Source of the DNA: a virus | Lineage: Duplodnaviria; Heunggongvirae; Uroviricota; Caudoviricetes | Virus record (IMG/VR): IMGVR_UViG_2609459797_000007 | Strand: one strand, 5' to 3' | Length of the DNA stretch: 33,237 nt | In this document: piece by piece, positions 1-31,816 of the stretch | How positions within the stretch are numbered: the stretch's first letter is position 1 | How the letters are laid out: the number at the start of each line of letters is the position of its first letter | Made by a program: the position numbers and the translations under genes | The notes under the pieces: model-generated | The model's database searches: none | What the model was told of the DNA's origin: nothing | Seen by the model: only the letters and a program-made list of their open reading frames with translations

Positions 1-981
1 TTAAAGCGATACGCCACCGGCAAGCGGATTTAGTGAGACAGCATTTTGCAGATAGTCTGGCGAAAGATGCGCGTAAACCATCGTTTGCTGAATGCTGGCA
101 TGCCCTAAAATCTGCTGTAACGCGATGATGTTTCCTCCGTTCATCATGAAATGACTTGCGAAGGTATGACGCAGAATATGAGTTGCCTGGTTCGGTGGTA
201 TGTCTGCTTTTACCGCCTTCAGAGTCAGACAAAATTTTTCATAGTCCACTTTAAACAGTTTCGCGCTTGCCTCCTTTTTGATGAGCTTTTCCAGTTCGGC
301 AGAAATTGGAACAGTACGCTTTTTCCCGTTTTTGGTCTTCAGGAACGTCACACGGCAATTGACGATCTGCGAGGGCTTTAATGTTGCCAGTTCAGACCAT
401 CGCGCGCCGGTGCTGACTCCCAGAAGGGCAATCAATCTTGCATCGCCGGTTAATGCATTTAGCAAACTGCTGATTTCTTCCTTTTCCAGAAATGTCATTT
501 CTGGGTTTTCTTCAGTCAGTGGTGGCAATCCATGCACTGGATGGGTGCCGAAAAACTCTTCCAACTGAATCAACTTGGTGAACATGCCTGAAAAACGGTA
601 CATATCACGGTTAATTGTTGATGCCTTGATACCGTCACGAAGTCGCATAGAACGGTAGTCCATCAGAAGCCGTTTGCTCACGCGGCTAACGGGTATGTCA
701 CCGATGCCGCCGATCGTCTTCGTGAGGTGGTTAAATTCCTTCTCACCGTGTTCATGGTTTTGACCGTGATACTTCCACCAGGCATCCAGTAATTCAGATA
801 GAGATCTGCGATCTGTTCTCTGGCCCGCCCATTCTTTCTGATTAGCGTTCGCTAATGTGTAGCGCTCAAAGGCAACTGCTTCAGCTTTTCTTTCAAATTT
901 CCGGCGGATGCGACGTCCTTCACGCCCGCGGGGTCTGATATCCACTTCATAACGCCCATCATCGAGTCTTTTGATAGTCAT
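1..981 (-). CDS. int: Phage integrase, tyrosine recombinase (P2 Int-like)
   Basis: 326-aa ORF with the tyrosine-recombinase pattern: ARWSEL (Arg), HILRHTFAS (H-x-x-R) and VYAHL (catalytic Tyr) in the C-terminal third. Leftmost prophage gene; its stop codon is at the window edge. Confidence 0.9.
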   Translation of the reverse strand: MTIKRLDDGRYEVDIRPRGREGRRIRRKFERKAEAVAFERYTLANANQKEWAGQRTDRRSLSELLDAWWKYHGQNHEHGEKEFNHLTKTIGGIGDIPVSRVSKRLLMDYRSMRLRDGIKASTINRDMYRFSGMFTKLIQLEEFFGTHPVHGLPPLTEENPEMTFLEKEEISSLLNALTGDARLIALLGVSTGARWSELATLKPSQIVNCRVTFLKTKNGKKRTVPISAELEKLIKKEASAKLFKVDYEKFCLTLKAVKADIPPNQATHILRHTFASHFMMNGGNIIALQQILGHASIQQTMVYAHLSPDYLQNAVSLNPLAGGVSL

Positions 982-1123: not shown

Positions 1124-1417
1124 TCAGCCAGTTTTGCGGCCTGAGGGTGACGAGGTTGTTTCGTCTTGCCCAGAGTGTGCGACGACCGGGGATATTTGCC
1201 CGGCTTCTGGTGCTGTGTCGTCAGTCATAATCCAAAGTGTGTACTTCTTGAATTGTGGGGCGTTAACGATCTGCTTCACAATCTGAAGGCCTGGTTCTTT
1301 ATGTCCTCCTTCGTAGTTCTTGAGCGAACTTAGTGCCACTCCACTGATTTCACAGAATTTTGCCTGTGTTAGCCCTTCTGCCTTCCGTATTGCCCGGAGC
1401 TTTTCCGATGTTTTCAT
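1124..1417 (-). CDS. C: Immunity repressor C (P2 C-type, short HTH repressor)
   Basis: 97-aa ORF with an N-terminal HTH (LTQAKFCEISGVALSSLKNYE) and a C-terminal QFKKYTLWIMTDD...SGQDETTSSPSGRKTG tail as I recall for P2 C. Position directly upstream of int on the same strand matches P2. Confidence 0.8.
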   Translation of the reverse strand: MKTSEKLRAIRKAEGLTQAKFCEISGVALSSLKNYEGGHKEPGLQIVKQIVNAPQFKKYTLWIMTDDTAPEAGQISPVVAHSGQDETTSSPSGRKTG

Positions 1418-1448
1418 TTGACAAGGTTTCCCCTTGGAGACTATATTT
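1418..1448 (+). promoter_or_regulatory. Candidate sigma70 promoter abutting the C start codon: TTGACA (1418-1423), 17-nt spacer, CTATAT/TATATT
   Basis: Read directly: ttgaca-aggtttccccttggaga-ctatat. Rightward orientation fits an early lytic (Pe-like) promoter facing away from C, or a promoter for a non-coding transcript. Not experimentally defined. Confidence 0.4.
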
Positions 1449-1477
1449 GCCCCAAAAGGTACTCGAAAGGAAACCTT
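1423..1477. promoter_or_regulatory. Perfect 9-bp inverted repeat AAGGTTTCC (1423-1431) / GGAAACCTT (1469-1477) flanking the -10 region; candidate operator
   Basis: Read directly from the sequence. Position immediately upstream of the repressor gene and over a promoter-like element suggests a repressor or Cox binding site. Confidence 0.35.
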
Positions 1478-1713
1478 TTAGGGCGAGAGTCCAGCAGGTC
1501 AGGAACCCTCCTGAGCCGTTTTAAAGCCGCTGGATCTTACAAGGTTAGCATGTAACCAAGTGAGGATGAATGATGCAGGGATATGTTGTTTATGTTGATT
1601 CTGGGGTGGTAGGCGGGGCATTACGCAAGGTCTATTCAGAATGCGGGGTGTTCGTGGGGGTTGTGCGGTATGAGTGAGCCGGTGCAAAACCGGCTCATAT
1701 AGCAGTGGACGAT

Positions 1714-2193
1714 TTAGCGTGGAATACCGACCGTTAACAAAGCAATTAACTTTTCAGGAAAATTAAGATGCTCCCGACTTTCAATTCCCATAGAAATACA
1801 TGCCTTGTTTCGAGCGGGGTTATCCATGCACTCCATTACAATGCTATCGAATTCCTCAATCATAGAGAGACGTGCGGCAATCTCATCCGTACTCAGTTTG
1901 TTAATATCATCAATAAGAGCGGAGTAGCGTTTAGTCTGTTGTTTTGCTGCTTCCGCCCTTTCTCCGAAATGCCAGGCAATGCGGCACCCGCTAAGAATGG
2001 CGATGACTCCACCGAACAACCAACTGAAAGAGCTATTAGCAAACACGGATGCGCCAAGTATCAGCACAAGGGCGTTGAGTACGGTATCAATACGGCGGTT
2101 GAATATTTCGCCTATACGCTCAAGCCAATAGCTATTCCATATCCGAAAAATCAAAGCGGATCGCTTCTGATACTCAGTTGGTTGGGTGTTCAT
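1714..2193 (-). CDS. Hypothetical membrane protein with two predicted TM helices and a ~85-aa soluble C-terminal domain; accessory cargo in the immunity region
   Basis: 159-aa ORF. Two hydrophobic stretches (IDTVLNALVLILGASVFA and FSWLFGGVIAILSGCRIAW) followed by a charged, helical C-terminus. GAGGA Shine-Dalgarno 10 nt upstream of ATG. Sits between C and cox where P2 has no gene. Confidence 0.6.
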   Translation of the reverse strand: MNTQPTEYQKRSALIFRIWNSYWLERIGEIFNRRIDTVLNALVLILGASVFANSSFSWLFGGVIAILSGCRIAWHFGERAEAAKQQTKRYSALIDDINKLSTDEIAARLSMIEEFDSIVMECMDNPARNKACISMGIESREHLNFPEKLIALLTVGIPR

Positions 2194-2199
2194 ATTTAT

Positions 2200-2285
2200 T
2201 TAATCCTCATCATCTTCGCCGCCTTTGCTTTTTTCTGGAGAGGGGGCGGGTTTTCTAGGTACGTGAAATTTATCCGTATCGGACA
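2200..2285 (-). CDS. Hypothetical small acidic peptide (28 aa, MSDTDKFHVPRKPAPSPEKSKGGEDDED), immediately upstream of the 2-TM gene
   Basis: ATG at 2285 preceded by GGAG (GGAGtaaattcATG on the minus strand). Stop lies 6 nt before the 2-TM gene start. The 63-aa version in the ORF track needs a TTG start without a good RBS. Confidence 0.35.
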
Positions 2286-2406
2286 TGAATTTACTCCTTG
2301 TGGTGGTGATGGTTACGCCCGTTCCGGCAAGAACTGAGGGCGTAAAAAATATACCACAAAACCCTGAGCCGGGCAGGGCTTTACCCGGCAACTAACTGGA
2401 GGTTTT

Positions 2407-2679
2407 ATGGAAGCAAATGACTATGTAATTCAGTACCCGCTAGACGCGGTTCATCCTGATAAGTTCGCGGAATTGCTGGGTAAACCACGCACAGCCGTAC
2501 AAACCATGATTGAAAAAAATAAGCTGCCGGTTATTGAGTTTCGTGATCCGTCGAAGCCAAAAGCGCGCGCGGGTGAAAAGCTGGTTTTTGTTCCTGAGTT
2601 CAATCGAGGCGTACGTGAGGCGTTTTATAACCGCCCTGTAGAACAGCGCGATGCCTGGTTGCTCTGGATGGGCCTCTGA
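2407..2679 (+). CDS. cox: Cox-like excisionase and early-switch regulator (P2 Cox family)
   Basis: 90-aa ORF; the motifs KLPVIEF..DPSKPKARAGEKLVFVPEFN...RDAWLLWMGL agree with my memory of P2 Cox (KLPVID...RAGEYWVY...DGWLMWLGL). GGAGG RBS. First rightward early gene, as in P2. Confidence 0.8.
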   Translation: MEANDYVIQYPLDAVHPDKFAELLGKPRTAVQTMIEKNKLPVIEFRDPSKPKARAGEKLVFVPEFNRGVREAFYNRPVEQRDAWLLWMGL

Positions 2680-2885: not shown

Positions 2886-3166
2886 TGACTACTTCAACCG
2901 CAGCAATTCTGAATGCCCGCCAAAGCGTCAACGCTTCCCGGCAGGACGGAACCCGCACACCGTCCCGCAGTGGTTATAGCCCCAGTCATCAGCACAGCAA
3001 GTCGCGTAATGTTGTTCAGGGAATGGCACTGTCTGATATTGCGAGAAATGGTTTTGAGGTGCGATGTAAAGAGACGGGCATTCAATTTTCTATTCTTCCG
3101 GGCGGCTCTATTTGTGACGCCTTCAGTGTTGAATTAGAAAAATACTGGAATAGCGGTGCTCGCTAA
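2885..3166 (+). CDS. Hypothetical early protein (93 aa)
   Basis: ORF whose start overlaps the preceding stop (translational coupling) in the early operon. No recognisable motif. Confidence 0.45.
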   Translation: MTTSTAAILNARQSVNASRQDGTRTPSRSGYSPSHQHSKSRNVVQGMALSDIARNGFEVRCKETGIQFSILPGGSICDAFSVELEKYWNSGAR

Positions 3167-3246
3167 TTAAATAACTGCAATCTGAATCTGTTTATTTACG
3201 GCATTTCTGCCGGGGCTTCGCTTTATCTTTTTTCAGGAGGTTGATT

Positions 3247-3414
3247 ATGACAATTCAAACAAATGAACGCGCGCACCTGCTTGGGTTGTTACGTATCAAA
3301 TTGACCTTACTGAAAAAAGAAAAGCTGTCCACCAATGAAATTTATCGCAGCCTGGAAGACTGGATCTACAACAGAGAAAAGGCCGCAGAAATCAAGGAGC
3401 AAAAAAATGGTTAA
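3247..3414 (+). CDS. Hypothetical small protein (55 aa, MTIQTNERAHLLGLLRIKLTLLKKEKLSTNEIYRSLEDWIYNREKAAEIKEQKNG)
   Basis: Not in the supplied ORF track (below size cutoff). ATG at 3247 with an AGGAGG RBS 7 nt upstream. Its 3' end overlaps the methyltransferase start. Confidence 0.4.
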   Translation: MTIQTNERAHLLGLLRIKLTLLKKEKLSTNEIYRSLEDWIYNREKAAEIKEQKNG

Positions 3415-4390
3415 TTCCCCTCTGATCTGGGCGGGCGGCAAGTCTCGCGCGATGCCTCATGTACTGGAGGCTTTGCCAAAGGGTGAATGTCTCGTTGAGC
3501 CTTTTGTAGGTAGTGGTAGTGTCTTTCTGAACACTGACTATAAAACCTATATTCTGTGTGATAGCAACGCAGCGCTTATGAACTTCTATTCAATATTGAA
3601 GAGCAATACTAAATCGTTGCTAGATGTCGCTGCTACTCTATTTGATGGCGGTAATAATGAAGATGCATATTATAAACGCCGCAATGAATTTAATGATTTT
3701 AATCGTGGTTTTCCCCAGCATAATAAAAAAACTTCTGATGGAAAGGTTTATTATCAGAGTGAACTTGTAAAGTTTGCAGCATTATTCCTTTATCTAAACC
3801 GTCATTGCTATAACGGTTTATACCGAGTGAATGGGAAGAATGAATTTAACGTTCCATTTGGTCGTCGCCGCAAGCCAATTTTCCCTGTTGCAGAGATCCA
3901 GCACTTTGCAAAACGAGCATATGAGAAAGGTGCTCAGTTTCTTTGCGCTGATTTCCGTTACACCATCCCTGTTGCTAGTCGCATATTTGAGCGCACAGTA
4001 ATTTACTGTGATCCGCCTTACCTGCCAGCGAGTAAAACGGCTGATTTTACCGCGTACGGCAAACCCTTCACTGTCGATGATCACCGTGACCTGGTTGAGT
4101 CATTGATTACCGCTCATAACAACGAAGGATGCCTGTCTGTTTTTTCCGGTAGCGATACCCCGGAAACCCGCAAAATTTACTACCCGTTCACCCTTAATTC
4201 ATTCGAAATCCGCCGATCTGTAGGGGCCAAATCTCGCAACTTGGCTGGCGAGGTGATCGGCTCTCTACGCGTTTGTGGTTGTTGTGGGCGTACTGGCGGC
4301 GGTTGTCCTGATTGCGGTGCTGTGATGGGTGATGCGACCTATTCAGAAATGGTTGCCTCTGGTGCTTTTGATGATCAGGAGGTGTTCTGA
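3407..4390 (+). CDS. dam: DNA N6-adenine methyltransferase (Dam-like, alpha-class order FxGxG then DPPY) with a Cys-rich C-terminal tail
   Basis: Motif I (VEPFVGSGSVF) and motif IV (VIYCDPPYLPASK) in Dam order. Start taken at ATG 3407 (AAGGAG RBS); the track's upstream start at 3335 lacks an RBS. C-terminal CGCCGRTGGGCPDCG looks like a zinc ribbon. Confidence 0.8.
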   Translation: MVNSPLIWAGGKSRAMPHVLEALPKGECLVEPFVGSGSVFLNTDYKTYILCDSNAALMNFYSILKSNTKSLLDVAATLFDGGNNEDAYYKRRNEFNDFNRGFPQHNKKTSDGKVYYQSELVKFAALFLYLNRHCYNGLYRVNGKNEFNVPFGRRRKPIFPVAEIQHFAKRAYEKGAQFLCADFRYTIPVASRIFERTVIYCDPPYLPASKTADFTAYGKPFTVDDHRDLVESLITAHNNEGCLSVFSGSDTPETRKIYYPFTLNSFEIRRSVGAKSRNLAGEVIGSLRVCGCCGRTGGGCPDCGAVMGDATYSEMVASGAFDDQEVF

Positions 4391-4563: not shown

Positions 4564-4572
4564 GGCGGATTG

Positions 4573-7011
4573 ATGACTTCAGTTCGCCGCGCCCATAGCA
4601 TGACCTCCATGCCGGGAGGCTCGGTTGAGCCAGCCCGGTATGCTTACGCCTGGAATGAGCCTAAACAGGCCATTTCCGTCGATAAGACTCCCGCTGTTGA
4701 CCTATATGAATTGGGTCAAGAGCAGGAGTTTTTCGCATGGGTAGAAGATACCCTCAAGCCGTTACCTTCTTTCATTCGCCGCCGCATTGCTTTTTACATA
4801 AATACCGTTCACGAAGATAAAGGGCGTCATATCGCAAAACTGAAGCTGCGCGATATCGTTAAGCGCGAGCTTCCACACGTCCGTAACGTCACGAATCAAT
4901 ACGCAGTACCAGAAGACAATGATTGGATTATTTTCTCTGAACTAAACCCACTATTTCACACGTTTGAAAATCTGCGTGAGCTAGCGCACCGCTTTAATAA
5001 TCTGGCTGATAGTACCGATGAAGATATTGATTTGTTGGCACAGGACATTGCTATTTATGCCAATGCCGTTTTGGCTGAAGTGAGTGAAGGCGCGAGCGTG
5101 TTTAGTGATGCTGAGTACGGCAAACGCATGGTGCGTGAAGGCTCTAGACTAATTGCGTATTTCAGGTTGGTGGCACCTTGGGCTAAGAAGCGCCGGATGG
5201 CGCCTGATGAAGCGGCGGCGGCAATACAAAAAACCATGCACGATCGCTTTTGGTCACGCCTTCTGCGCAAGTACGCCCGCCGCTGGCGTGAGCATTTGCA
5301 CATTGCTTATGGTGATGTGCGCCGCGATGTTTCACCGTATTGCAGTAAACACCACGTTACACAGTGGGATTCCCGCCGTAAGCGTAGTCGCGAAATTATG
5401 AGCCGTCTTGAACTTGAAGATCAGGTAACTGGCGAGCGCATTTCGCTGATAGAGCAGATTGATAAAAGTATTTCTAACCCTGAAAAGCGCCGCGTTGAGT
5501 TGATGACGCGCATTGGTGGCTTTGAGAAAGTGGCAACAGAAAGCGGTTTTGCCGGTAGTTTCTTCACGTTGACCGCACCGTCTAAATATCATGCTTTTAC
5601 AGCATTCGGGCATCGTAACCATAAATGGAACGGAGCAAGCCCACGCAAAACACAGAACTACCTTAATCACGTCTGGCAACTGATCCGCGCGGAGCTTGCG
5701 CGCCGTGAGATTCCTGTTTTTGGCCTTCGCGTTGCTGAATCTCACCATGATGCTACTCCGCATTGGCATGGCCTTCTGTTCACTGCCCCAGAACATACCG
5801 GCGAGTTGTTGGAAGTGATGGAAGACTACGCCACACGTGAGGATGCAGACGAGCTAACCGGCAAGACTGGCAAGCAACCGCGCTTTGAGCTTAAGCCAAT
5901 AGATCCGGCTTTGGGGAGTGCTACTGGCTATGTTGTTAAGTACATATCTAAAAATATTGATGGCTACGCGCTGGATGGTGAAAGCGACGACGAAAGCGGA
6001 CGTCCACTGAAGGAAACAGCAAAACACGCTACCGCCTGGGCTTCATGCTGGGGCATTCGTCAGTTTCAGTTTTTGGGTGGTGCGCCGGTGTCTGTCTGGC
6101 GCGAGTTGCGCCGCCTGAAGAATCAGGAAATGGCAGATCGTATCAGTCCGGTTTTCGGTGAGTTACATCGCGCCGCACATGCGGGGAACTGGCAGGACTA
6201 CATTACCTTGCAGGGTGGCCCGTTCGTGGCACGGAATAGGCTTGTGTTGCGCGCATGGTATCAGTACCGGGATGAGCCGAGCAGTTACGGCGAGTTTCAG
6301 AGAGTCATTAAAGGCGTAGTCATGCCAGCATCGACTATTCCTCCGGTTGAAACCCGTCTCCATTCTTATCGTATTGTCAAAATGAAGCCAAAAGCAGACG
6401 ACGACGCTGGTCGAGGTTTTGACCTTAAGGGCGCGCCCGCGCCCTCTTGGACTCGTGTCAATAACTGTACCGAGTACAAAAAACAAACAGATTCACCGCC
6501 TGTTTATCCGACAGATCTGACTGTGCCAGATACTGATGCACTCCCTGAACAATTTGAAATTGGTCAATTGAGCCGAGATCAGAGAAAACAAATTGCGGTG
6601 GACCTCAGAAATCACAAACCAAATCAGCGTGTTTCACCTGCTGATCAGTTTGAGGCGCTCGCTTTCAGCATCACTACCGGTGACTGTACCGACTATGACC
6701 GGGTTAGGGCAGAAAGTTATCTGAAAGCAGCACATGCAATCCGGCAGGAAGAAAGCACGGTGAGCGAGAATGTTGCTGCACTTGCTGAAAAGATAATGAG
6801 TTGGGCAAGGTTAAGAAAAATTAAGATTAACCCTGTGCAGGCGCTGAAACTAGCAAGGGGTGAGGAGGTTACAGCGCTCGATACGATTTACCGAGCCAAC
6901 CTAATCACTGGGGAACTTATTGTGACTGGCGTGGACATGCATTGGCGTAAAACTCTTGCAAGACATCAGACAGAGGATCTAACCCTCCGTTGGAGGAAAG
7001 CAATAGGTTAA
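4573..7011 (+). CDS. A: Replication initiation protein A (rolling-circle HUH endonuclease, P2 gpA family)
   Basis: About 812-aa ORF. HUH motif ATPHWHGLLFTAP and paired tyrosines in GYVVKYISKN (Y-x-x-x-Y). Size and position match P2 gene A. The ATG at 4573 is preferred over the TTG at 4570. Confidence 0.85.
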   Translation: MTSVRRAHSMTSMPGGSVEPARYAYAWNEPKQAISVDKTPAVDLYELGQEQEFFAWVEDTLKPLPSFIRRRIAFYINTVHEDKGRHIAKLKLRDIVKRELPHVRNVTNQYAVPEDNDWIIFSELNPLFHTFENLRELAHRFNNLADSTDEDIDLLAQDIAIYANAVLAEVSEGASVFSDAEYGKRMVREGSRLIAYFRLVAPWAKKRRMAPDEAAAAIQKTMHDRFWSRLLRKYARRWREHLHIAYGDVRRDVSPYCSKHHVTQWDSRRKRSREIMSRLELEDQVTGERISLIEQIDKSISNPEKRRVELMTRIGGFEKVATESGFAGSFFTLTAPSKYHAFTAFGHRNHKWNGASPRKTQNYLNHVWQLIRAELARREIPVFGLRVAESHHDATPHWHGLLFTAPEHTGELLEVMEDYATREDADELTGKTGKQPRFELKPIDPALGSATGYVVKYISKNIDGYALDGESDDESGRPLKETAKHATAWASCWGIRQFQFLGGAPVSVWRELRRLKNQEMADRISPVFGELHRAAHAGNWQDYITLQGGPFVARNRLVLRAWYQYRDEPSSYGEFQRVIKGVVMPASTIPPVETRLHSYRIVKMKPKADDDAGRGFDLKGAPAPSWTRVNNCTEYKKQTDSPPVYPTDLTVPDTDALPEQFEIGQLSRDQRKQIAVDLRNHKPNQRVSPADQFEALAFSITTGDCTDYDRVRAESYLKAAHAIRQEESTVSENVAALAEKIMSWARLRKIKINPVQALKLARGEEVTALDTIYRANLITGELIVTGVDMHWRKTLARHQTEDLTLRWRKAIG

Positions 7012-28825: not shown

Positions 28826-29338
28826 TTACCCCATGCCCAGCGCAGACATCACGCGGGAAGGGTAAATATTTTCGCCGTTGCGTTTGTAGACGAAGTTAAG
28901 CAAGTCGATTTCCCATAGGGGTTTATCGTCAATTGACAGCTTGTAGTACGTGTTTTTAATGGCGTAGGTCACGGATGTGTCTTCACCCTGTTTGCTTTCG
29001 CCGCCGTCGATTTCAGTGAACTTGCCGCGCATTTCCACATCAACGATCTGGCTCTCGCCAGACGTGTAATACTCCCCGGTAAAGCGGATTAGCGTACCGT
29101 CCAGATCGCCGCCGTACTCCAGAAGTAGAGCCTGAACCAGACCGCCAACAACCATCGTTGCATCAAGTGCGCCGCTATCCAGTCCGAGATCGACGGCAAC
29201 GGAACCAATCATGCCGCCGCCCTGGTAGTCTTCCGTTTTCCGGGTCAGTTTTGGCAGCGTCACAGATGTCACTTTGCCGATATTGTTTACGCTGTTCACG
29301 AAGCAGGTGAACAGCCGCAATTTTGCTGGAATCGCCAT
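28826..29338 (-). CDS. FII: Tail tube protein FII
   Basis: 170-aa ORF directly downstream of the sheath gene; size and synteny match P2 FII. Confidence 0.85.
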   Translation of the reverse strand: MAIPAKLRLFTCFVNSVNNIGKVTSVTLPKLTRKTEDYQGGGMIGSVAVDLGLDSGALDATMVVGGLVQALLLEYGGDLDGTLIRFTGEYYTSGESQIVDVEMRGKFTEIDGGESKQGEDTSVTYAIKNTYYKLSIDDKPLWEIDLLNFVYKRNGENIYPSRVMSALGMG

Positions 29339-30529
29339 TTAGTTACTCCCCAGAGACGAAAACGCGCCTTCAAAATATTCATCGGTGAACGTCTGGATCA
29401 GCGTTAAATCTTCCATCGGCGGTACTGGCGTATACTTGTAACGGATCGCCACTTTTCCCTGAATCAGGTTTGCGGTCGGGTTGTCCACAATGTCAAACCA
29501 CGCCTCCGCGCCAAGCAGCTTGCCAGCGGTCACAAGTGCGCTGAGTTTCTTGTTAATTGCACTCACCACGTCTTTCACGTTGGTTGGGGTAAGTGGCCCG
29601 TCAACGGTTTCAAACTGTGCCTCTGCGATGGTGTCCGCCAGGATTTGCGCCGTACGGGTGTACACCTCAAAAGTAAATTCATTGGTGTCAGTGGTGCGGT
29701 TGCCCCAGAAGCGGAAGCCGTTACGCTTGATGATGGTGGTGATTTCATCGTTGTTCAGCGTCTGGGCGTCGCTGTCTTCAGCCTGGAGCGCCCAGAAAAC
29801 GTCCTTCGACATGCCAAGCACGTTACTGACGGCGATGTTAGACAGAGAACGATGCCAGCCGTATTGGTTGTCAATAAACGCGCGCAGCCCTACCGCATAG
29901 GCTGGGGCGGGAAACTCTTCATTTGCCCCGGACACCTGGTTATAGGCAATGTAGTTAGGCCAGATCAGCATGAGTTCACGTGATGCGAAGGTTTCACGAT
30001 ATTGCCGGGCCTCTGCCAGTGTGTTGCAGCCGTTACAGCCAGCATAAACAAAGGCGCGAAGCTGTTTGGCGATCACGCAAAGCTGTGATGTTACTTCTTC
30101 GGTATCGTATTCCGGCACCGCCAGGACGCGCGGGCGATATCCCGTTTTTTGTTCGGCGGTCAGTAGCGCATACATGCCGGTGTAGTTACCGTCAGCATCA
30201 GAGCCACCAATAATCAACTGCGACTGTGTTTCCGCCGTTTTCCCTTCCTCCGGCGGTTTAGCCGTGGCAACACGAACAACAATGATTTTCGCGCTTGCCT
30301 GGTCTGAAATAGCTTTCAGTGTTTTGTACAACGTCCCTGTTTTCCCTGCCTTGCCGAGCATCGACTGAGGCCGCGTGATAAGCGTTGGGATGTTAAGTGG
30401 GAAAGCGTCTTCGTCTGCGTCATCAGCGACGACAATCACGCCAATGACGCTGGAGTCAATGTCGTTAATTACCCTCGTGATGTCGGTTTCTTCTTTGGTG
30501 CGAGCACCGTGAAAACGTGTCTCAGACAT
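29339..30529 (-). CDS. FI: Contractile tail sheath protein FI
   Basis: About 396-aa ORF; matches my memory of P2 FI along its length (FPLN.P.LIT, GTLY/GTLA, KLRAF, RELM.IWP, GWH.TLSN, GFRFWGNRT, NYTRTAQ..ADT.AEA, KY.YTPVPP.E.LTL). ATG 30529 preferred over 30541. Confidence 0.9.
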   Translation of the reverse strand: MSETRFHGARTKEETDITRVINDIDSSVIGVIVVADDADEDAFPLNIPTLITRPQSMLGKAGKTGTLYKTLKAISDQASAKIIVVRVATAKPPEEGKTAETQSQLIIGGSDADGNYTGMYALLTAEQKTGYRPRVLAVPEYDTEEVTSQLCVIAKQLRAFVYAGCNGCNTLAEARQYRETFASRELMLIWPNYIAYNQVSGANEEFPAPAYAVGLRAFIDNQYGWHRSLSNIAVSNVLGMSKDVFWALQAEDSDAQTLNNDEITTIIKRNGFRFWGNRTTDTNEFTFEVYTRTAQILADTIAEAQFETVDGPLTPTNVKDVVSAINKKLSALVTAGKLLGAEAWFDIVDNPTANLIQGKVAIRYKYTPVPPMEDLTLIQTFTDEYFEGAFSSLGSN

Positions 30530-30604
30530 GTTTGTCACCATTACGTTTTGTTGAGTTCGCCACCATGATTGCTGATTGATGTAACGGCTTCACGCCTTTC
30601 TGGT

Positions 30605-30631
30605 TGTGCTATCTCTCTGACAACTAAAACG
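30605..30631. promoter_or_regulatory. Late promoter element: TGT-N12-ACA dyad (30605-30622) with the same 18-mer TCTCTGACAACTAAAACG (30614-30631), in the divergent FI/D region
   Basis: Exact 18-bp identity with the P/O promoter element at 12971-12988, including the Ogr-type dyad. Confidence 0.6.
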
Positions 30632-30682
30632 AATTCTCCCACGCGCGCCCGCGTGGAATTATTCAGCAAAACGGGAGGGTAT

Positions 30683-31816
30683 ATGAGTGTTTCAGTGATC
30701 AGCAGTATGATTTCGGGCGCGGCTGGCGGTGTCGATGACATCCTGACGGAGGCGTTAAAAATACCAGCATTCAGCGTCCGGCAAGGCGGGAAGGTGTTAA
30801 CAGAATTATCAGATCGCGTGATATCCATCAGCCTGACGGACAACCGGGGTTTTGACGCCGATCAGCTGACATTAGAGCTGGATGACACTGATGGAAGCGT
30901 TGCTCTTCCGCCGCGTGGCGCTGAGTTGTCTTTCTGGCTGGGGTGGATGGGTGAAGCGCTGGTTTATAAGGGCATCTACACGGTTGATGAAGTGGCGCAC
31001 GACGGGCCGCCCGACCGTATCACCGTGACCGCCAGAAGTGCAGATTTCAGAGAGGAGTTTAACGTAAAGCGTGAAGTCTCCTGGCATGATGTGACTGTGG
31101 AGCGGGTTGTGTCTGCTATCGCAAAACGGTATGACCTGACGCCGCAAATCAGCGATCTGTTGATGGATGTGGAAATTGACCATGCCGATCAGACTCAGGA
31201 AAGCGATATGTCATTTCTGACCAGAATGGCGGAAATGTTAGGGGCCATCGCCACGGTAAAAAATGGAAGTCTGCTGTTTATCGTGCCGGGTGGTGGTTTC
31301 ACTGCATCAGGGAAGGCTATTCCGTCGATTGCCATCACGCGCAGCAGTGGAGACCGGCACCGCTTCCGGGTTGCTGATCGTGACGCTTATACCGGCGTCC
31401 GCGCGTACTGGCTTGATCTGAACTACGGGAAAAAGAAAAAGGTTAGCGTTCATCGCCGTGCCACAACGAAAAAAAAGGATAAGAGCAGCAGCAGGGAAGG
31501 TGACTACATTGAAGGCGCTGAAGGTAACGTTTTTATTATGCGTAAAACCTTCCAGAACGAAGAAGCCGCCAGGCGCGCAGCGGCGGCAAAGTGGCAGCAG
31601 TTACAGCGCGGCGCGGCGGAGTTTTCGATCACCCTGGCGCGCGGGCGTGCGGAGTTGTACCCGGAAATGCATTCGACGGTGACCGGTTTTAAGGCAGATA
31701 TTGACGCCCAGGACTGGATAATCAGCAAGGTACAGCATGACGTTGATAGCAACGGATTTACTACACAGCTTAACTTTGAAGCAAAAATATCTGACTGGAT
31801 CGCAGAAACTGAATAG
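30683..31816 (+). CDS. D: Tail protein D (late gene D)
   Basis: About 377-aa ORF preceding ogr. ATG 30683 with a GGGAGGG RBS. Size and position match P2 D. Confidence 0.8.
   Translation: MSVSVISSMISGAAGGVDDILTEALKIPAFSVRQGGKVLTELSDRVISISLTDNRGFDADQLTLELDDTDGSVALPPRGAELSFWLGWMGEALVYKGIYTVDEVAHDGPPDRITVTARSADFREEFNVKREVSWHDVTVERVVSAIAKRYDLTPQISDLLMDVEIDHADQTQESDMSFLTRMAEMLGAIATVKNGSLLFIVPGGGFTASGKAIPSIAITRSSGDRHRFRVADRDAYTGVRAYWLDLNYGKKKKVSVHRRATTKKKDKSSSREGDYIEGAEGNVFIMRKTFQNEEAARRAAAAKWQQLQRGAAEFSITLARGRAELYPEMHSTVTGFKADIDAQDWIISKVQHDVDSNGFTTQLNFEAKISDWIAETE

What the first reader, a model, noticed from the sequence alone, without database searches (positions are those of the whole stretch)
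1418..1713. Atypical immunity switch: strong rightward promoter and 9-bp inverted repeat at the C start, about 1 kb from cox
A near-consensus promoter (TTGACA, 17 nt, CTATAT) points rightward from the C start codon, with a perfect inverted repeat AAGGTTTCC / GGAAACCTT flanking its -10. If this is Pe, its transcript must traverse about 950 nt antisense to the cassette before reaching cox, an unusual convergent arrangement that would couple lytic transcription to silencing of the cassette. Alternatively it drives a small RNA within the about 300-bp non-coding gap 1418-1713.
Basis: seen in the sequence. Interest (0 to 1): 0.55.

Follow-up and report, generated by a model that had tools for sequence, protein, structure and literature searches.

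The report
Phage lytic promoter split from cox
The promoter and inverted repeat are the normal lytic promoter and repressor-binding sites of a P2/WPhi-type prophage switch, and they lie 1 kb from cox because a small mobile gene cassette, pointing against lytic transcription, has been inserted at a recurrent hotspot exactly at the cox start.

Summary
TTGACA-18-TATATT (1418-1447, + strand, 11/12) and the perfect 9-bp inverted repeat (1423-1431 / 1469-1477) are both present.

The promoter aligns base for base with the experimentally mapped early promoter Pe of phage WPhi. It is conserved in more than 60 related switches.

The inverted repeat is the outer end of two 17-bp, immunity-type-specific boxes. 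They sit where WPhi's operators O1 and O2 lie. The boxes covary across 56 switches with no strand bias, so they behave as DNA operator sites rather than an RNA hairpin.

Only about 150 bp of the "300-bp gap" is the switch, and it includes a face-to-face extended -10 promoter, Pc. The rest holds a conserved small + strand ORF (1570-1677).

The 1-kb distance to cox comes from an insert of about 830 bp (about 1567-2398). Relatives have 135-195 bp between C and cox. Fourteen of 80 have cassettes of 0.4-1.2 kb at the same junction.

The cassette carries a 28-aa acidic peptide and a 159-aa two-transmembrane protein on the - strand, with their own promoter module. This protein family lies antisense to the early operon in all 41 loci examined.

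Pe must read 953 nt antisense through the cassette to reach cox. Silencing of the cassette by that transcription is plausible but untested.

Verdict: a new variant of known kinds.

The parts
1124..1417 (-). C immunity repressor gene (97 aa, HTH), upstream of int (1-981, - strand)
   Evidence: Pfam HTH_3 E=6e-8 and phrog_147 E=7e-38. 66% identical to WPhi C.
1418..1447 (+). Early lytic promoter Pe: -35 TTGACA 1418-1423, 18-nt spacer, -10 TATATT 1442-1447. The predicted start is about 1454.
   Evidence: 11/12 match. Aligns with the mapped WPhi Pe. CATTTGACA...GACTATATT is conserved in more than 60 switches. The start site is inferred, not measured.
1425..1441 (.). Left operator box (O1 equivalent), GGTTTCCCCTTGGAGAC, abutting the -10.
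   Evidence: Same position as WPhi O1. The box sequence is immunity-type specific and tracks C residues 19-48. It occurs once in the window at up to 3 mismatches.
1459..1475 (.). Right operator box (O2 equivalent), GTACTCGAAAGGAAACC, inverted relative to the left box.
   Evidence: Same position as WPhi O2, 33-34 bp centre to centre. Across 56 switches the 19 arm pairs are 73.4% complementary against 63.1% shuffled and at most 42% slid; 14 of 19 pairs show double changes. No strand bias in wobble pairs.
1449..1484 (.). Second palindrome centred on the right box: GCCCCAAAAGGT (1449-1460) and ACCTTTTAGGGC (1473-1484). Its role is unresolved.
   Evidence: I5. 83.3% paired against at most 62% slid. 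49 distinct arm pairs, mean 9.3/12 against 5.9 in shuffles.
1542..1550 (-). Predicted lysogenic promoter Pc, extended -10 TGcTAACCT. The predicted start is about 1535, face to face with Pe, giving an overlap of about 80 nt.
   Evidence: One of only three - strand TGnTAnnnT sites in 1400-2420. Conserved in relatives. The position agrees with the WPhi data: transcripts overlap by 82 nt and O2 lies 60 nt from the Pc start. Inferred.
1570..1677 (+). Small ORF (35 aa, or 34 aa from the ATG at 1573), MMQGYVVYVDSGVVGGALRKVYSECGVFVGVVRYE. SD GAGGA at 1562-1566. It occupies the place of cox as first gene after Pe.
   Evidence: Conserved in L018 and L006-8 with third-position changes. Every cassette at this junction starts with a + strand ORF at this position.
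1567..2398 (.). Inserted cassette of about 830 bp between the Pe/Pc switch and the cox ribosome-binding site. Junctions are approximate.
   Evidence: Relatives lacking it have cox directly after TAACCAA.TGAG. Same junctions in heteroimmune E. hormaechei prophages. C-cox spacing is 135-195 bp in 66 of 80 relatives.
1714..2193 (-). 159-aa two-transmembrane protein with SLATT-like topology; function unknown
   Evidence: phrog_6315 E=5e-47. AF2 pLDDT 85.7. Weak SLATT signals only. 193 clusters among 1.84 billion proteins.
2200..2286 (-). 28-aa peptide MSDTDKFHVPRKPAPSPEKSKGGEDDED, 6 nt upstream of the 2TM gene
   Evidence: A peptide with motif D.FHV..(K/R)P.P and an acidic tail precedes the 2TM gene in most family loci.
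2313..2345 (-). 5' stem-loop of the cassette mRNA (TTACGCCC ... GGGCGTAA with inner GTTC/GAAC), followed by SD AAGGAG (2299-2294)
   Evidence: The stem sequence differs between cassettes while pairing is kept.
2348..2356 (-). Predicted cassette promoter Pm, extended -10 TGgTATATT. The predicted start is about 2341.
   Evidence: TGnTAnnnT is conserved at this place in at least 9 different cassettes. Inferred.
2357..2389 (-). GC-rich hairpin (GCCGGG 2368-2373 / CCCGGC 2384-2389; CCCTG/CAGGG) followed by a T-run on the - strand. Terminator-like insulator or regulator site directly upstream of Pm.
   Evidence: Terminator-like hit on the - strand. One occurrence in the window. Conserved in all cassettes.
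2407..2679 (+). cox
   Evidence: Pfam Phage_Cox E=1e-22 and phrog_272 E=2e-45.

Best explanation
1418-1569 is an ordinary WPhi-class P2-type immunity switch.

Pe (1418-1447) fires rightward. Two 17-bp boxes flank its -10: 1425-1441 and 1459-1475, inverted relative to each other. A weak extended -10 promoter, Pc (1550-1542, - strand), fires leftward into C and int.

cox is 953 nt away because a cassette of about 830 bp has been inserted exactly at the cox ribosome-binding site, a recurrent insertion point in this phage group.

The cassette has two halves:
- A small + strand ORF (1570-1677) that becomes the first gene of the Pe operon.
- A - strand operon encoding a 28-aa acidic peptide and a 159-aa two-transmembrane protein. 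It has its own extended -10 promoter, an upstream terminator-like hairpin and a 5' stem-loop.

In the lysogen C shuts Pe. The - strand operon is then free to be expressed, and its transcript probably runs on over Pe into C.

On induction or infection the strong Pe reads through the whole cassette to reach cox, B and A. That transcription collides with transcription of the - strand operon and produces antisense RNA to it, turning it down. It also expresses the small ORF.

Basis of each step:
- Shown by sequence and comparison: the anatomy, the orthology, the insertion, the hotspot and the orientation bias.
- Inferred: the start sites, C binding, read-through and silencing.
For: Pe:
- 11/12 match.
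- Base-for-base alignment with the WPhi promoter/operator oligonucleotide TTGACAGTAACC[TATTGGTGAC]TTATATT...[TATTGGTGAC] of PMC1904263.
- C is 66% identical to WPhi C.

Operators:
- Boxes sit at fixed positions in 66 unique switches. Mean best inverted match is 12.2/17 against 8.8 +/- 1.0 in shuffles.
- On 56 switches, 73.4% of cells are complementary against 63.1% shuffled and at most 42% slid. 14 of 19 pairs have changes on both sides. The covariation score is 0.317 against 0.161.
- Box sequence follows C residues 19-48, Spearman 0.56.
- No strand asymmetry: 78 against 69 wobble-type cells. Folding energies are equal on the two strands, p = 0.40.

Pc: conserved TGnTAAYCT, at the distance reported for WPhi.

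Insertion:
-.
- Spacer is 135-195 bp in 66 relatives and 556-1341 bp in 14.
- All inserts have a + ORF at the cox-start position and convergent - strand genes.
- An annotated example exists in E. coli CUVET19-1426.

Route to cox: no + strand promoter of at least 9/12 in 2200-2410, and no + strand terminator in 1450-2400.

Orientation: the 2TM gene is antisense to cox/dam/A and co-oriented with C/int in 41 of 41 loci, at 12 or more different positions.

Cassette promoter module: conserved, with a covarying 5' hairpin.
Against: - There are no transcript or binding data. All start sites are predictions.
- In this phage the boxes match only 11/17 as an inverted repeat and 9/17 as a direct repeat, so the orientation C actually reads is not settled.
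- P2, P2 Hy dis and WPhi C are reported to bind direct repeats (PMC1904268).
- The sequences are related, so the shuffle controls overstate significance. The slid controls are the fairer ones.
- About 730 nt of untranslated Pe transcript before cox could be subject to Rho-dependent termination, which would argue for some other way of expressing cox.
- No - strand terminator was found after the 2TM gene. Read-through into C is assumed, not shown.
- The function of the cassette proteins is unknown. The SLATT resemblance is weak (E 0.01-0.1).
Confidence: 0.72

Rival explanations
1. The inverted repeat acts as an RNA hairpin in the leader of the C mRNA made from Pc. The arm next to the start codon contains the GGA of the C ribosome-binding site. 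The hairpin would therefore control C translation or mRNA stability rather than bind protein.
For: Both arms lie within the predicted Pc leader (1535 to 1418) and not within the Pe transcript. The minimum-energy fold of the - strand pairs these regions in many relatives. The arms covary.
Against: There is no excess of G-U over A-C type mismatches on the - strand: 78 against 69, with 212 other mismatches. There is no energy difference between strands. In WPhi, L048, L081 and L091 the two boxes at the same positions are direct repeats, which cannot pair. In WPhi these positions are experimentally shown operators. Box sequence tracks the repressor sequence.
Confidence: 0.12
2. The promoter drives a small regulatory RNA confined to the gap 1418-1713.
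For: A strong promoter followed by hairpins: 1449-1484, and a perfect 9-bp stem at 1675-1697.
Against: 1418 to about 1569 is homologous to the normal C-cox spacer, where the same promoter drives cox directly. No Rfam family reaches its threshold; the best hit is Twister-sister at 17 bits against a gathering score of 34, E = 2.3. 1570-1677 has an SD, an ATG and amino-acid-level conservation. The 1675-1697 hairpin has no T-run and is degenerate in L006-8.
Confidence: 0.05
3. After the insertion cox is no longer served by Pe. It is transcribed from an unrecognised promoter inside the cassette's right end, and Pe now expresses only the small ORF.
For: There are 730 nt of untranslated RNA between the small ORF and cox, a possible target for Rho. 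The conserved right-end module (2300-2400) could hold signals for both strands.
Against: The best + strand match in 2200-2410 is 8/12 and overlaps the cox ATG. The arrangement is kept in several heteroimmune prophages, and IMG/VR predicts them as complete viral genomes. No + strand terminator lies between Pe and cox.
Confidence: 0.08

Closest known systems
Transcriptional switch of coliphage WPhi (P2-like, immunity class III; Liu and Haggard-Ljungquist 1999; PMC1904263, PMC1904268)
   Same: - C is about 97 aa with int downstream.
- CAT of C abuts the TTGACA of Pe.
- Two repressor sites flank the -10, about 34 bp centre to centre.
- A conserved AAAAGGT...ACCTTTT lies after the start.
- Pc is weak and about 80 nt downstream, facing Pe.
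- C is 66% identical.
   Different: - The box sequences differ, so the phages are probably heteroimmune.
- The boxes are inverted here and direct in WPhi.
- cox does not follow the switch but lies 953 nt away, beyond an inserted cassette.
- The first ORF after Pe is a 35-aa cassette gene.
Convergent pR/pL of coliphage 186 and Pe/Pc of P2 (transcriptional interference between face-to-face promoters; PMC5001618 and references there)
   Same: A strong lytic promoter transcribes across a weaker, oppositely oriented promoter, so that lytic transcription lowers lysogenic transcription.
   Different: Here a second convergent pair exists. Pe faces the cassette promoter about 900 bp away, with a whole operon in the overlap. 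Interference and antisense effects would fall on an accessory operon, not only on the repressor gene.
Morons and defence hotspots of P2-like prophages (A-Q region with tin and old, G-FI region with Z/fun: PMC3573123, PMC9122126; 'between integrase and primase', 8% of systems: PMC13586616)
   Same: Variable accessory genes sit at a fixed point between conserved phage genes. They have their own promoter and are oriented against the neighbouring phage operon.
   Different: The site lies inside the immunity switch, between Pe/Pc and cox. It is not one of the two classical moron positions. The cassettes are small (0.4-1.2 kb) and always consist of a convergent pair, with the + strand member taking over the cox translation start. 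No member matches a known defence family.
SLATT-domain two-transmembrane effectors of conflict systems
   Same: Size and topology: an N-terminal helix, a two-TM hairpin and a helical C-terminal part. Foldseek hits in BFVD are mostly SLATT-annotated proteins. PADLOC RTasSLATT hit, E = 0.012.
   Different: No Pfam SLATT model is reached. There is no associated nucleotide-signal or reverse-transcriptase gene. The partner is a 28-aa acidic peptide.
Prophage exclusion genes with built-in self-immunity (P22/lambda sieB-esc; BstA with its aba element, bioRxiv 10.1101/2020.07.13.199331)
   Same: A membrane or abortive-infection gene is expressed from the prophage, and a device lets the phage's own lytic cycle escape it.
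   Different: The resemblance is purely by analogy. No homology was found, and no phenotype is known for this cassette.

Membership tests
P2-type (C/Cox) immunity switch, WPhi class | [quoted passage not shown] | tested here: met
   C at 1124-1417 (-) and int at 1-981 (-). Pfam HTH_3 and phrog_147. 66% identity to WPhi C.
P2-type (C/Cox) immunity switch, WPhi class | Strong early promoter Pe next to the C start, with two repressor half-sites flanking its -10 about three helical turns apart | tested here: met
   The promoter and both boxes align with the mapped WPhi Pe, O1 and O2. Binding itself was not tested.
P2-type (C/Cox) immunity switch, WPhi class | The operator half-sites are direct repeats | tested here: not met
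   In fixed register the boxes match 11/17 inverted and 9/17 direct. Most relatives are clearly inverted at 13-15/17. This is a difference in orientation, not in position.
P2-type (C/Cox) immunity switch, WPhi class | Pc faces Pe so that the transcripts overlap | tested here: inconclusive
   A conserved extended -10 at 1550-1542 (- strand) predicts an overlap of about 80 nt, as in WPhi. No start-site data exist.
P2-type (C/Cox) immunity switch, WPhi class | [quoted passage not shown] | tested here: not met
   cox starts at 2407. A 35-aa ORF (1570-1677) is first, and 830 bp of cassette intervene.
Moron / prophage accessory cassette at a hotspot | Present in some and absent from other closely related phages at the same junction, with varying content | tested here: met
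   14 of 80 related loci carry inserts of at least 6 different contents at the C/cox junction.
Moron / prophage accessory cassette at a hotspot | Own promoter and own terminator | tested here: inconclusive
   A conserved extended -10 with a covarying 5' hairpin is present. No intrinsic terminator lies after the 2TM gene on the - strand.
Anti-phage defence system (known families) | A significant match to a model of a known or candidate defence protein | tested here: not met
   The best PADLOC hit has E = 0.012 (RTasSLATT). Nothing was found for the peptide or for other cassettes' genes.
SLATT domain | A match to a Pfam SLATT model at or above its gathering score | tested here: not met
   Only 2 of 81 family members touch SLATT_fungal, at E = 0.077. 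Fold hits to SLATT-annotated viral proteins have E 0.03-0.1 and TM 0.45-0.59.
Type I toxin-antitoxin (antisense RNA) | A small hydrophobic toxin under 60 aa and a dedicated short antisense RNA | tested here: not met
   The membrane protein is 159 aa. The antisense transcript would be the long Pe mRNA. No small-RNA gene was found.
Known RNA family in 1418-1713 | An Rfam covariance model at its gathering score | tested here: not met
   The best hit is 17.2 bits against 34 (Twister-sister), E = 2.3.

The most novel reading that the evidence does not exclude
The C/cox junction of WPhi-class P2-like phages may be a dedicated dock for small two-state cassettes. Each would carry a lysogeny-expressed effector on the strand of C. 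Here the effector would be a SLATT-like membrane protein with an acidic peptide partner, acting in exclusion or abortive infection. Each would also carry a lytic-expressed antidote ORF that takes the first position of the Pe operon. The phage's own induction would then disarm the effector twice over: by convergent or antisense transcription from Pe, and by the small protein. The portable promoter/insulator module (hairpin, extended -10, 5' stem-loop) lets the same effectors sit antisense anywhere in the early operon. Transcription from the cassette promoter into C would also stabilise lysogeny.
Probability: 0.3. Interest if true: 0.75.

Novelty: new variant of a known kind. Interest (0 to 1): 0.55.

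Why it matters
The P2/WPhi switch is a textbook example of two face-to-face promoters controlled by two repressors. Three things here would interest people who study it.

1. The point between the switch and cox is a recurrent insertion site. About one in six of the closest relatives sampled carries an insert. This is not one of the classical moron positions of P2-like phages. The lytic promoter then has to read through foreign genes before it reaches its own first regulator.

2. The cargo always has the same layout: a small gene read from Pe, convergent with genes read from a portable promoter module. The two-transmembrane family is antisense to lytic transcription wherever it occurs. This gives a direct, testable case of accessory genes wired to be on in the lysogen and off in lytic growth.

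3. In most relatives the two repressor boxes are inverted, not direct. This bears on the long-standing description of P2-type C proteins as binders of direct repeats.

None of this changes the basic reading that the promoter and repeat are Pe and its operators.

Tried and rejected
- Rfam at a permissive threshold on 900-2800 gave only chance-level hits.
- Pfam, PHROGs and PADLOC on the cassette proteins and on genes of other cassettes gave no named family. phrog_6315 and phrog_14615 matched, but both are of unknown function.
- A profile search of PDB sequences found nothing.
- The AlphaFold-database Foldseek library was not available.
- The original WPhi switch paper (PMC113030) is not held. 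Pc and operator positions were therefore taken from PMC1904263 and PMC1904268.
- The scan of one genome per species found only 4 loci with the 2TM family. E. coli complete genomes hold the cassette's right-end module in only 6 of 5426.
- I considered an RNA hairpin masking the C ribosome-binding site. I rejected it as the main reading because there is no strand asymmetry and some relatives have direct repeats at the same positions.
- I considered the 9-bp stem at 1675-1697 as a bidirectional terminator. It has no T-run on either strand and is degenerate in L006-8.
- I considered the 189-aa + strand ORF at 1768-2337 as a gene. It lies in the codon-aligned antisense frame of the 2TM gene, where open frames arise by themselves, and it is not open in all relatives.
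Full report
**What the window is.** The window is a complete P2-like phage genome; one search identifies it as IMG/VR contig IMGVR_UViG_2609460356_000007. Its left end reads as follows:
- int, 1-981, - strand.
- The C repressor, 1124-1417, - strand, 97 aa, HTH.
- A 159-aa ORF, 1714-2193, - strand.
- A 28-aa ORF, 2200-2286, - strand.
- cox, 2407-2679, + strand.
- Further early genes, up to the replication gene A at 4570-7011.

**Check of the observation.**
- The promoter scan reports TTGACA (1418-1423), 18 nt and TATATT (1442-1447) on the + strand, 11 of 12 matches. The site directly abuts the CAT of the C start codon.
- The repeat finder reports AAGGTTTCC 1423-1431 and GGAAACCTT 1469-1477, perfectly complementary (I12).
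- It also reports a second palindrome, GCCCCAAAAGGT 1449-1460 and ACCTTTTAGGGC 1473-1484 (I5).
- An 11/12 promoter match is not rare in itself. The window has two against 0.52 expected from shuffles. The case for function therefore rests on comparison with relatives.

**The promoter is Pe.**
- In E. coli prophages and in Enterobacter phage ENT4, C and cox are only about 150-160 bp apart. That spacer aligns with window 1418 to about 1569. CATTTGACA and GACTATATT are invariant, and the cox ribosome-binding site and ATG follow at once.
- C here is 66% identical to C of coliphage WPhi.
- PMC1904263 gives the wild-type WPhi Pe promoter/operator as TTGACAGTAACC TATTGGTGAC TTATATTCCCGTCAAAAGGTTGTG TATTGGTGAC A. 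It states that O1 and O2 flank the -10 and lie 34 bp apart. It also states that the Pe and Pc transcripts overlap by 82 nt and that O2 is 60 nt from the Pc start.
- The window aligns to this sequence base for base. The -35 and -10 coincide. WPhi O1 falls on window 1432-1441 and O2 on 1465-1474.

**The inverted repeat belongs to the operators.**
- I collected 80 loci with related C genes from IMG/VR, plus loci from E. coli and Enterobacter genomes. This gave 66 unique switch sequences.
- All of them have two 17-bp boxes at fixed places. One abuts the -10 (window 1425-1441, GGTTTCCCCTTGGAGAC). The other lies about 33-34 bp downstream (window 1459-1475, GTACTCGAAAGGAAACC).
- The box sequence differs from one immunity type to the next. 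Within a phage the two boxes match each other.
  - In most types they match as inverted repeats, 13-15 of 17.
  - In WPhi, L048, L081 and L091 they match as direct repeats, 12-16 of 17.
  - The mean best inverted match is 12.2 against 8.8 +/- 1.0 in shuffles.
- On an alignment of 56 switches, the 19 pairs of the extended repeat give these figures:
  - 73.4% complementary, against 63.1% after shuffling and 29-42% when the partner is slid.
  - 14 of 19 pairs show changes on both sides.
  - The covariation score is 0.317 against 0.161.
- In this phage the inner parts match less well: 11/17 inverted and 9/17 direct in fixed register.
- Box sequence follows the sequence of C residues 19-48, Spearman 0.56. 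Shared ancestry contributes to that figure.

**DNA site or RNA hairpin?**
- Both arms lie in the predicted leader of the C mRNA. The arm next to the ATG contains the GGA of the ribosome-binding site. An RNA hairpin was therefore a serious rival.
- It fails two tests.
  - Mismatches that would be G-U on the - strand (78 cells) are no commoner than those that would be G-U on the + strand (69 cells). Both are outnumbered by other mismatches (212). Folding energies of the two strands do not differ either (26 of 66, Wilcoxon p = 0.40).
  - Direct repeats at the same positions in some relatives cannot pair.
- The repeat is best read as a symmetric arrangement of two protein-binding boxes.
- The second palindrome (1449-1484) is centred on the right box and also covaries, even between phages with nearly the same C. 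Examples are CCCCA/TAGGG here and CCTCG/CGAGG in L019. The counts are 83.3% paired against at most 62% slid. I cannot say what it does. Its inner 7 bp would form a stem at the very 5' end of the Pe transcript. All of it lies in the Pc leader.

**Pc.**
- Only three TGnTAnnnT sites lie on the - strand between 1400 and 2420.
- One, TGCTAACCT at 1550-1542, is conserved in relatives as TGnTAAYCT. It predicts a start near 1535. That is about 80 nt from the Pe start and about 60 nt from the right box, as reported for WPhi.
- The predicted transcript begins with a stem (CCAGC...GCTGG) that varies compensatorily between types; in WPhi it is CCAGTCCCT...AGGGACTGG.

**Why cox is 1 kb away.**
- Homology with uninterrupted relatives ends near 1567 and resumes near 2398, just before the cox ribosome-binding site.
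- Three Enterobacter hormaechei prophages carry the same insert at the same junctions. They have different C genes and boxes, so the insert and the immunity region have been reassorted.
- Among the 80 IMG/VR loci, the distance from the C start to the cox start is 135-195 bp in 66 and 556-1341 bp in 14.
- The 14 hold at least six different contents. An annotated example exists in E. coli CUVET19-1426.
- The literature I could read names two moron positions in P2-like phages, A-Q and G-FI (PMC3573123). It also gives a coarse 'between integrase and primase' class holding 8% of defence systems (PMC13586616). I found no description of the C/cox junction itself as a hotspot.

**Anatomy of the cassettes.** Every insert begins, where cox would start, with a + strand ORF behind a good ribosome-binding site.
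- Here it is 1570-1677, with SD GAGGA at 1562-1566.
- L018 has lost the first ATG, which points to 1573 as the start.
- The E. hormaechei copy differs mostly at third positions.

Every insert ends, next to cox, with the same module on the - strand:
- A GC-rich hairpin with a T-run (window 2389-2357; GCCGGG-N10-CCCGGC occurs once in the window).
- An extended -10 (TGGTATATT, 2356-2348).
- A stem-loop whose stem differs between cassettes while pairing is kept: ACGCCC/GGGCGT here, and elsewhere TGCCCG/CGGGCA, GTGCCC/GGGCAC, ACACCTC/GAGGTGT and others.
- A ribosome-binding site.

In the present cassette this module drives a 28-aa peptide (MSDTDKFHVPRKPAPSPEKSKGGEDDED) and, 6 nt later, the 159-aa protein.

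**The 159-aa protein.**
- It belongs to phrog_6315, of unknown function.
- The family is small: 193 clusters at 50% identity among 1.84 billion proteins, all about 150-180 aa.
- The AlphaFold model is confident (pLDDT 85.7). It shows two long helices forming the membrane hairpin, plus three short helices.
- The peptide with the motif D.FHV..(K/R)P.P and an acidic tail precedes the gene in most family members, including Fels-2.

**Orientation.**
- I examined 41 loci with the 2TM gene, in at least 12 different positions: between C and cox, after cox, between cox and dam, between dam and A, and in the 186-type phage Fels-2.
- In every one the gene lies on the strand of C and int and against cox, dam and A.
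- If the contexts are independent, this has a chance of about 2e-4 under even odds.

**Consequences for transcription (inference).**
- No + strand promoter of at least 9/12 lies in 2200-2410. The best is 8/12 and overlaps the cox ATG.
- No + strand terminator-like site lies between 1450 and 2400.
- Pe is therefore the only visible source of cox, B and A mRNA, and its transcript must run 953 nt through the cassette. The last 730 nt of that path are untranslated and antisense to the - strand operon.
- On the - strand no terminator follows the 2TM gene, so transcripts from the cassette promoter probably continue across Pe into C and int.
- In the lysogen this would add to repressor synthesis and interfere with Pe.
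- After derepression the much stronger Pe would interfere with the cassette promoter and make antisense RNA to its message. Interference of this kind is known for 186 pR/pL and P2 Pe/Pc.
It is not shown.
- A weak point is possible Rho-dependent termination in the untranslated stretch. The + strand there has modest C-over-G windows around 1720-1960.

**Verdict.**
- The first interpretation (Pe, C operator, convergent arrangement) is supported by comparison with a characterised relative and by many natural variants.
- The small-RNA alternative is not supported.
- The switch is ordinary. The insertion hotspot, the constant convergent layout of its cargo, the portable promoter module, and the inverted rather than direct operator boxes are the new elements.
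- I rate the finding a new variant of known kinds, with moderate interest.

Noticed in passing
window 1768-2337 (+): A 189-aa open frame lies antisense to the 2TM gene, with AGGA 9 nt before its ATG. It is in the codon-aligned antisense frame, where stops are rare by construction. It is open in L018, L006 and L069 but broken in L082 and L054, so it is probably not a gene. If it were translated, it would shield the Pe transcript from Rho.
   Followed up: partly
window 1485-1535 (both strands); alignments A1 and A3: Conserved nested stems lie between the right operator box and Pc: CCAGC...GCTGG enclosing TCAGGA-ACCC-TCCTGA. The outer stem changes compensatorily in WPhi (CCAGTCCCT...AGGGACTGG). 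It could be the 5' stem of the Pc transcript, or it could lie in the region bound by Cox.
   Followed up: partly
window 2368-2389, and the same place in L094-L112, L005, L009: The palindrome GCCGGG-N8-14-CCCGGC is invariant (no covariation) upstream of the cassette promoter, centred near -37. That is more typical of a protein-binding site than of a mere terminator stem. No candidate regulator was identified.
   Followed up: partly
L091, L081, L048, L013 (WPhi) against most other switches: Among closely related C repressors, the two operator boxes are direct repeats in some immunity types and inverted repeats in most. The relative orientation of the sites appears to flip during evolution of this repressor family.
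   Followed up: partly
L032, L082, L094 and window 1570-1677: The small + strand ORFs of different cassettes share a loose motif: Y/W-x-G-D-x-K-N-G-T-L-x-G-T in L032 and L082, F-K-N-G-S-Y-T-G in L094, and Y-V-D-S-G-V-V-G-G here. The same + strand gene type is paired with different - strand cargo. No family match was found.
   Followed up: partly
L004 (Yersinia phage vB_YenM_42.18, record 2965-3426) and L005 (Fels-2, record 30349-30798): In both deposited phage genomes the 2TM gene is not annotated. ORFs on the opposite strand are annotated over it instead (vBYenM4218_008; STM2733.1 and STM2735).
   Followed up: yes
window 28933-28960 (+): This is the only other 11/12 sigma-70 match in the window: TTGACA, 16 nt, TTTAAT. 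Its context was not examined.
   Followed up: no
window 3335-4390 (+): The Dam-type methylase ORF ends in a Cys-rich tail (CGCCGRTGGGCPDCG). If read from the upstream ATG at 3335, it overlaps the preceding small ORF (3241-3414). The true start is probably further downstream.
   Followed up: no
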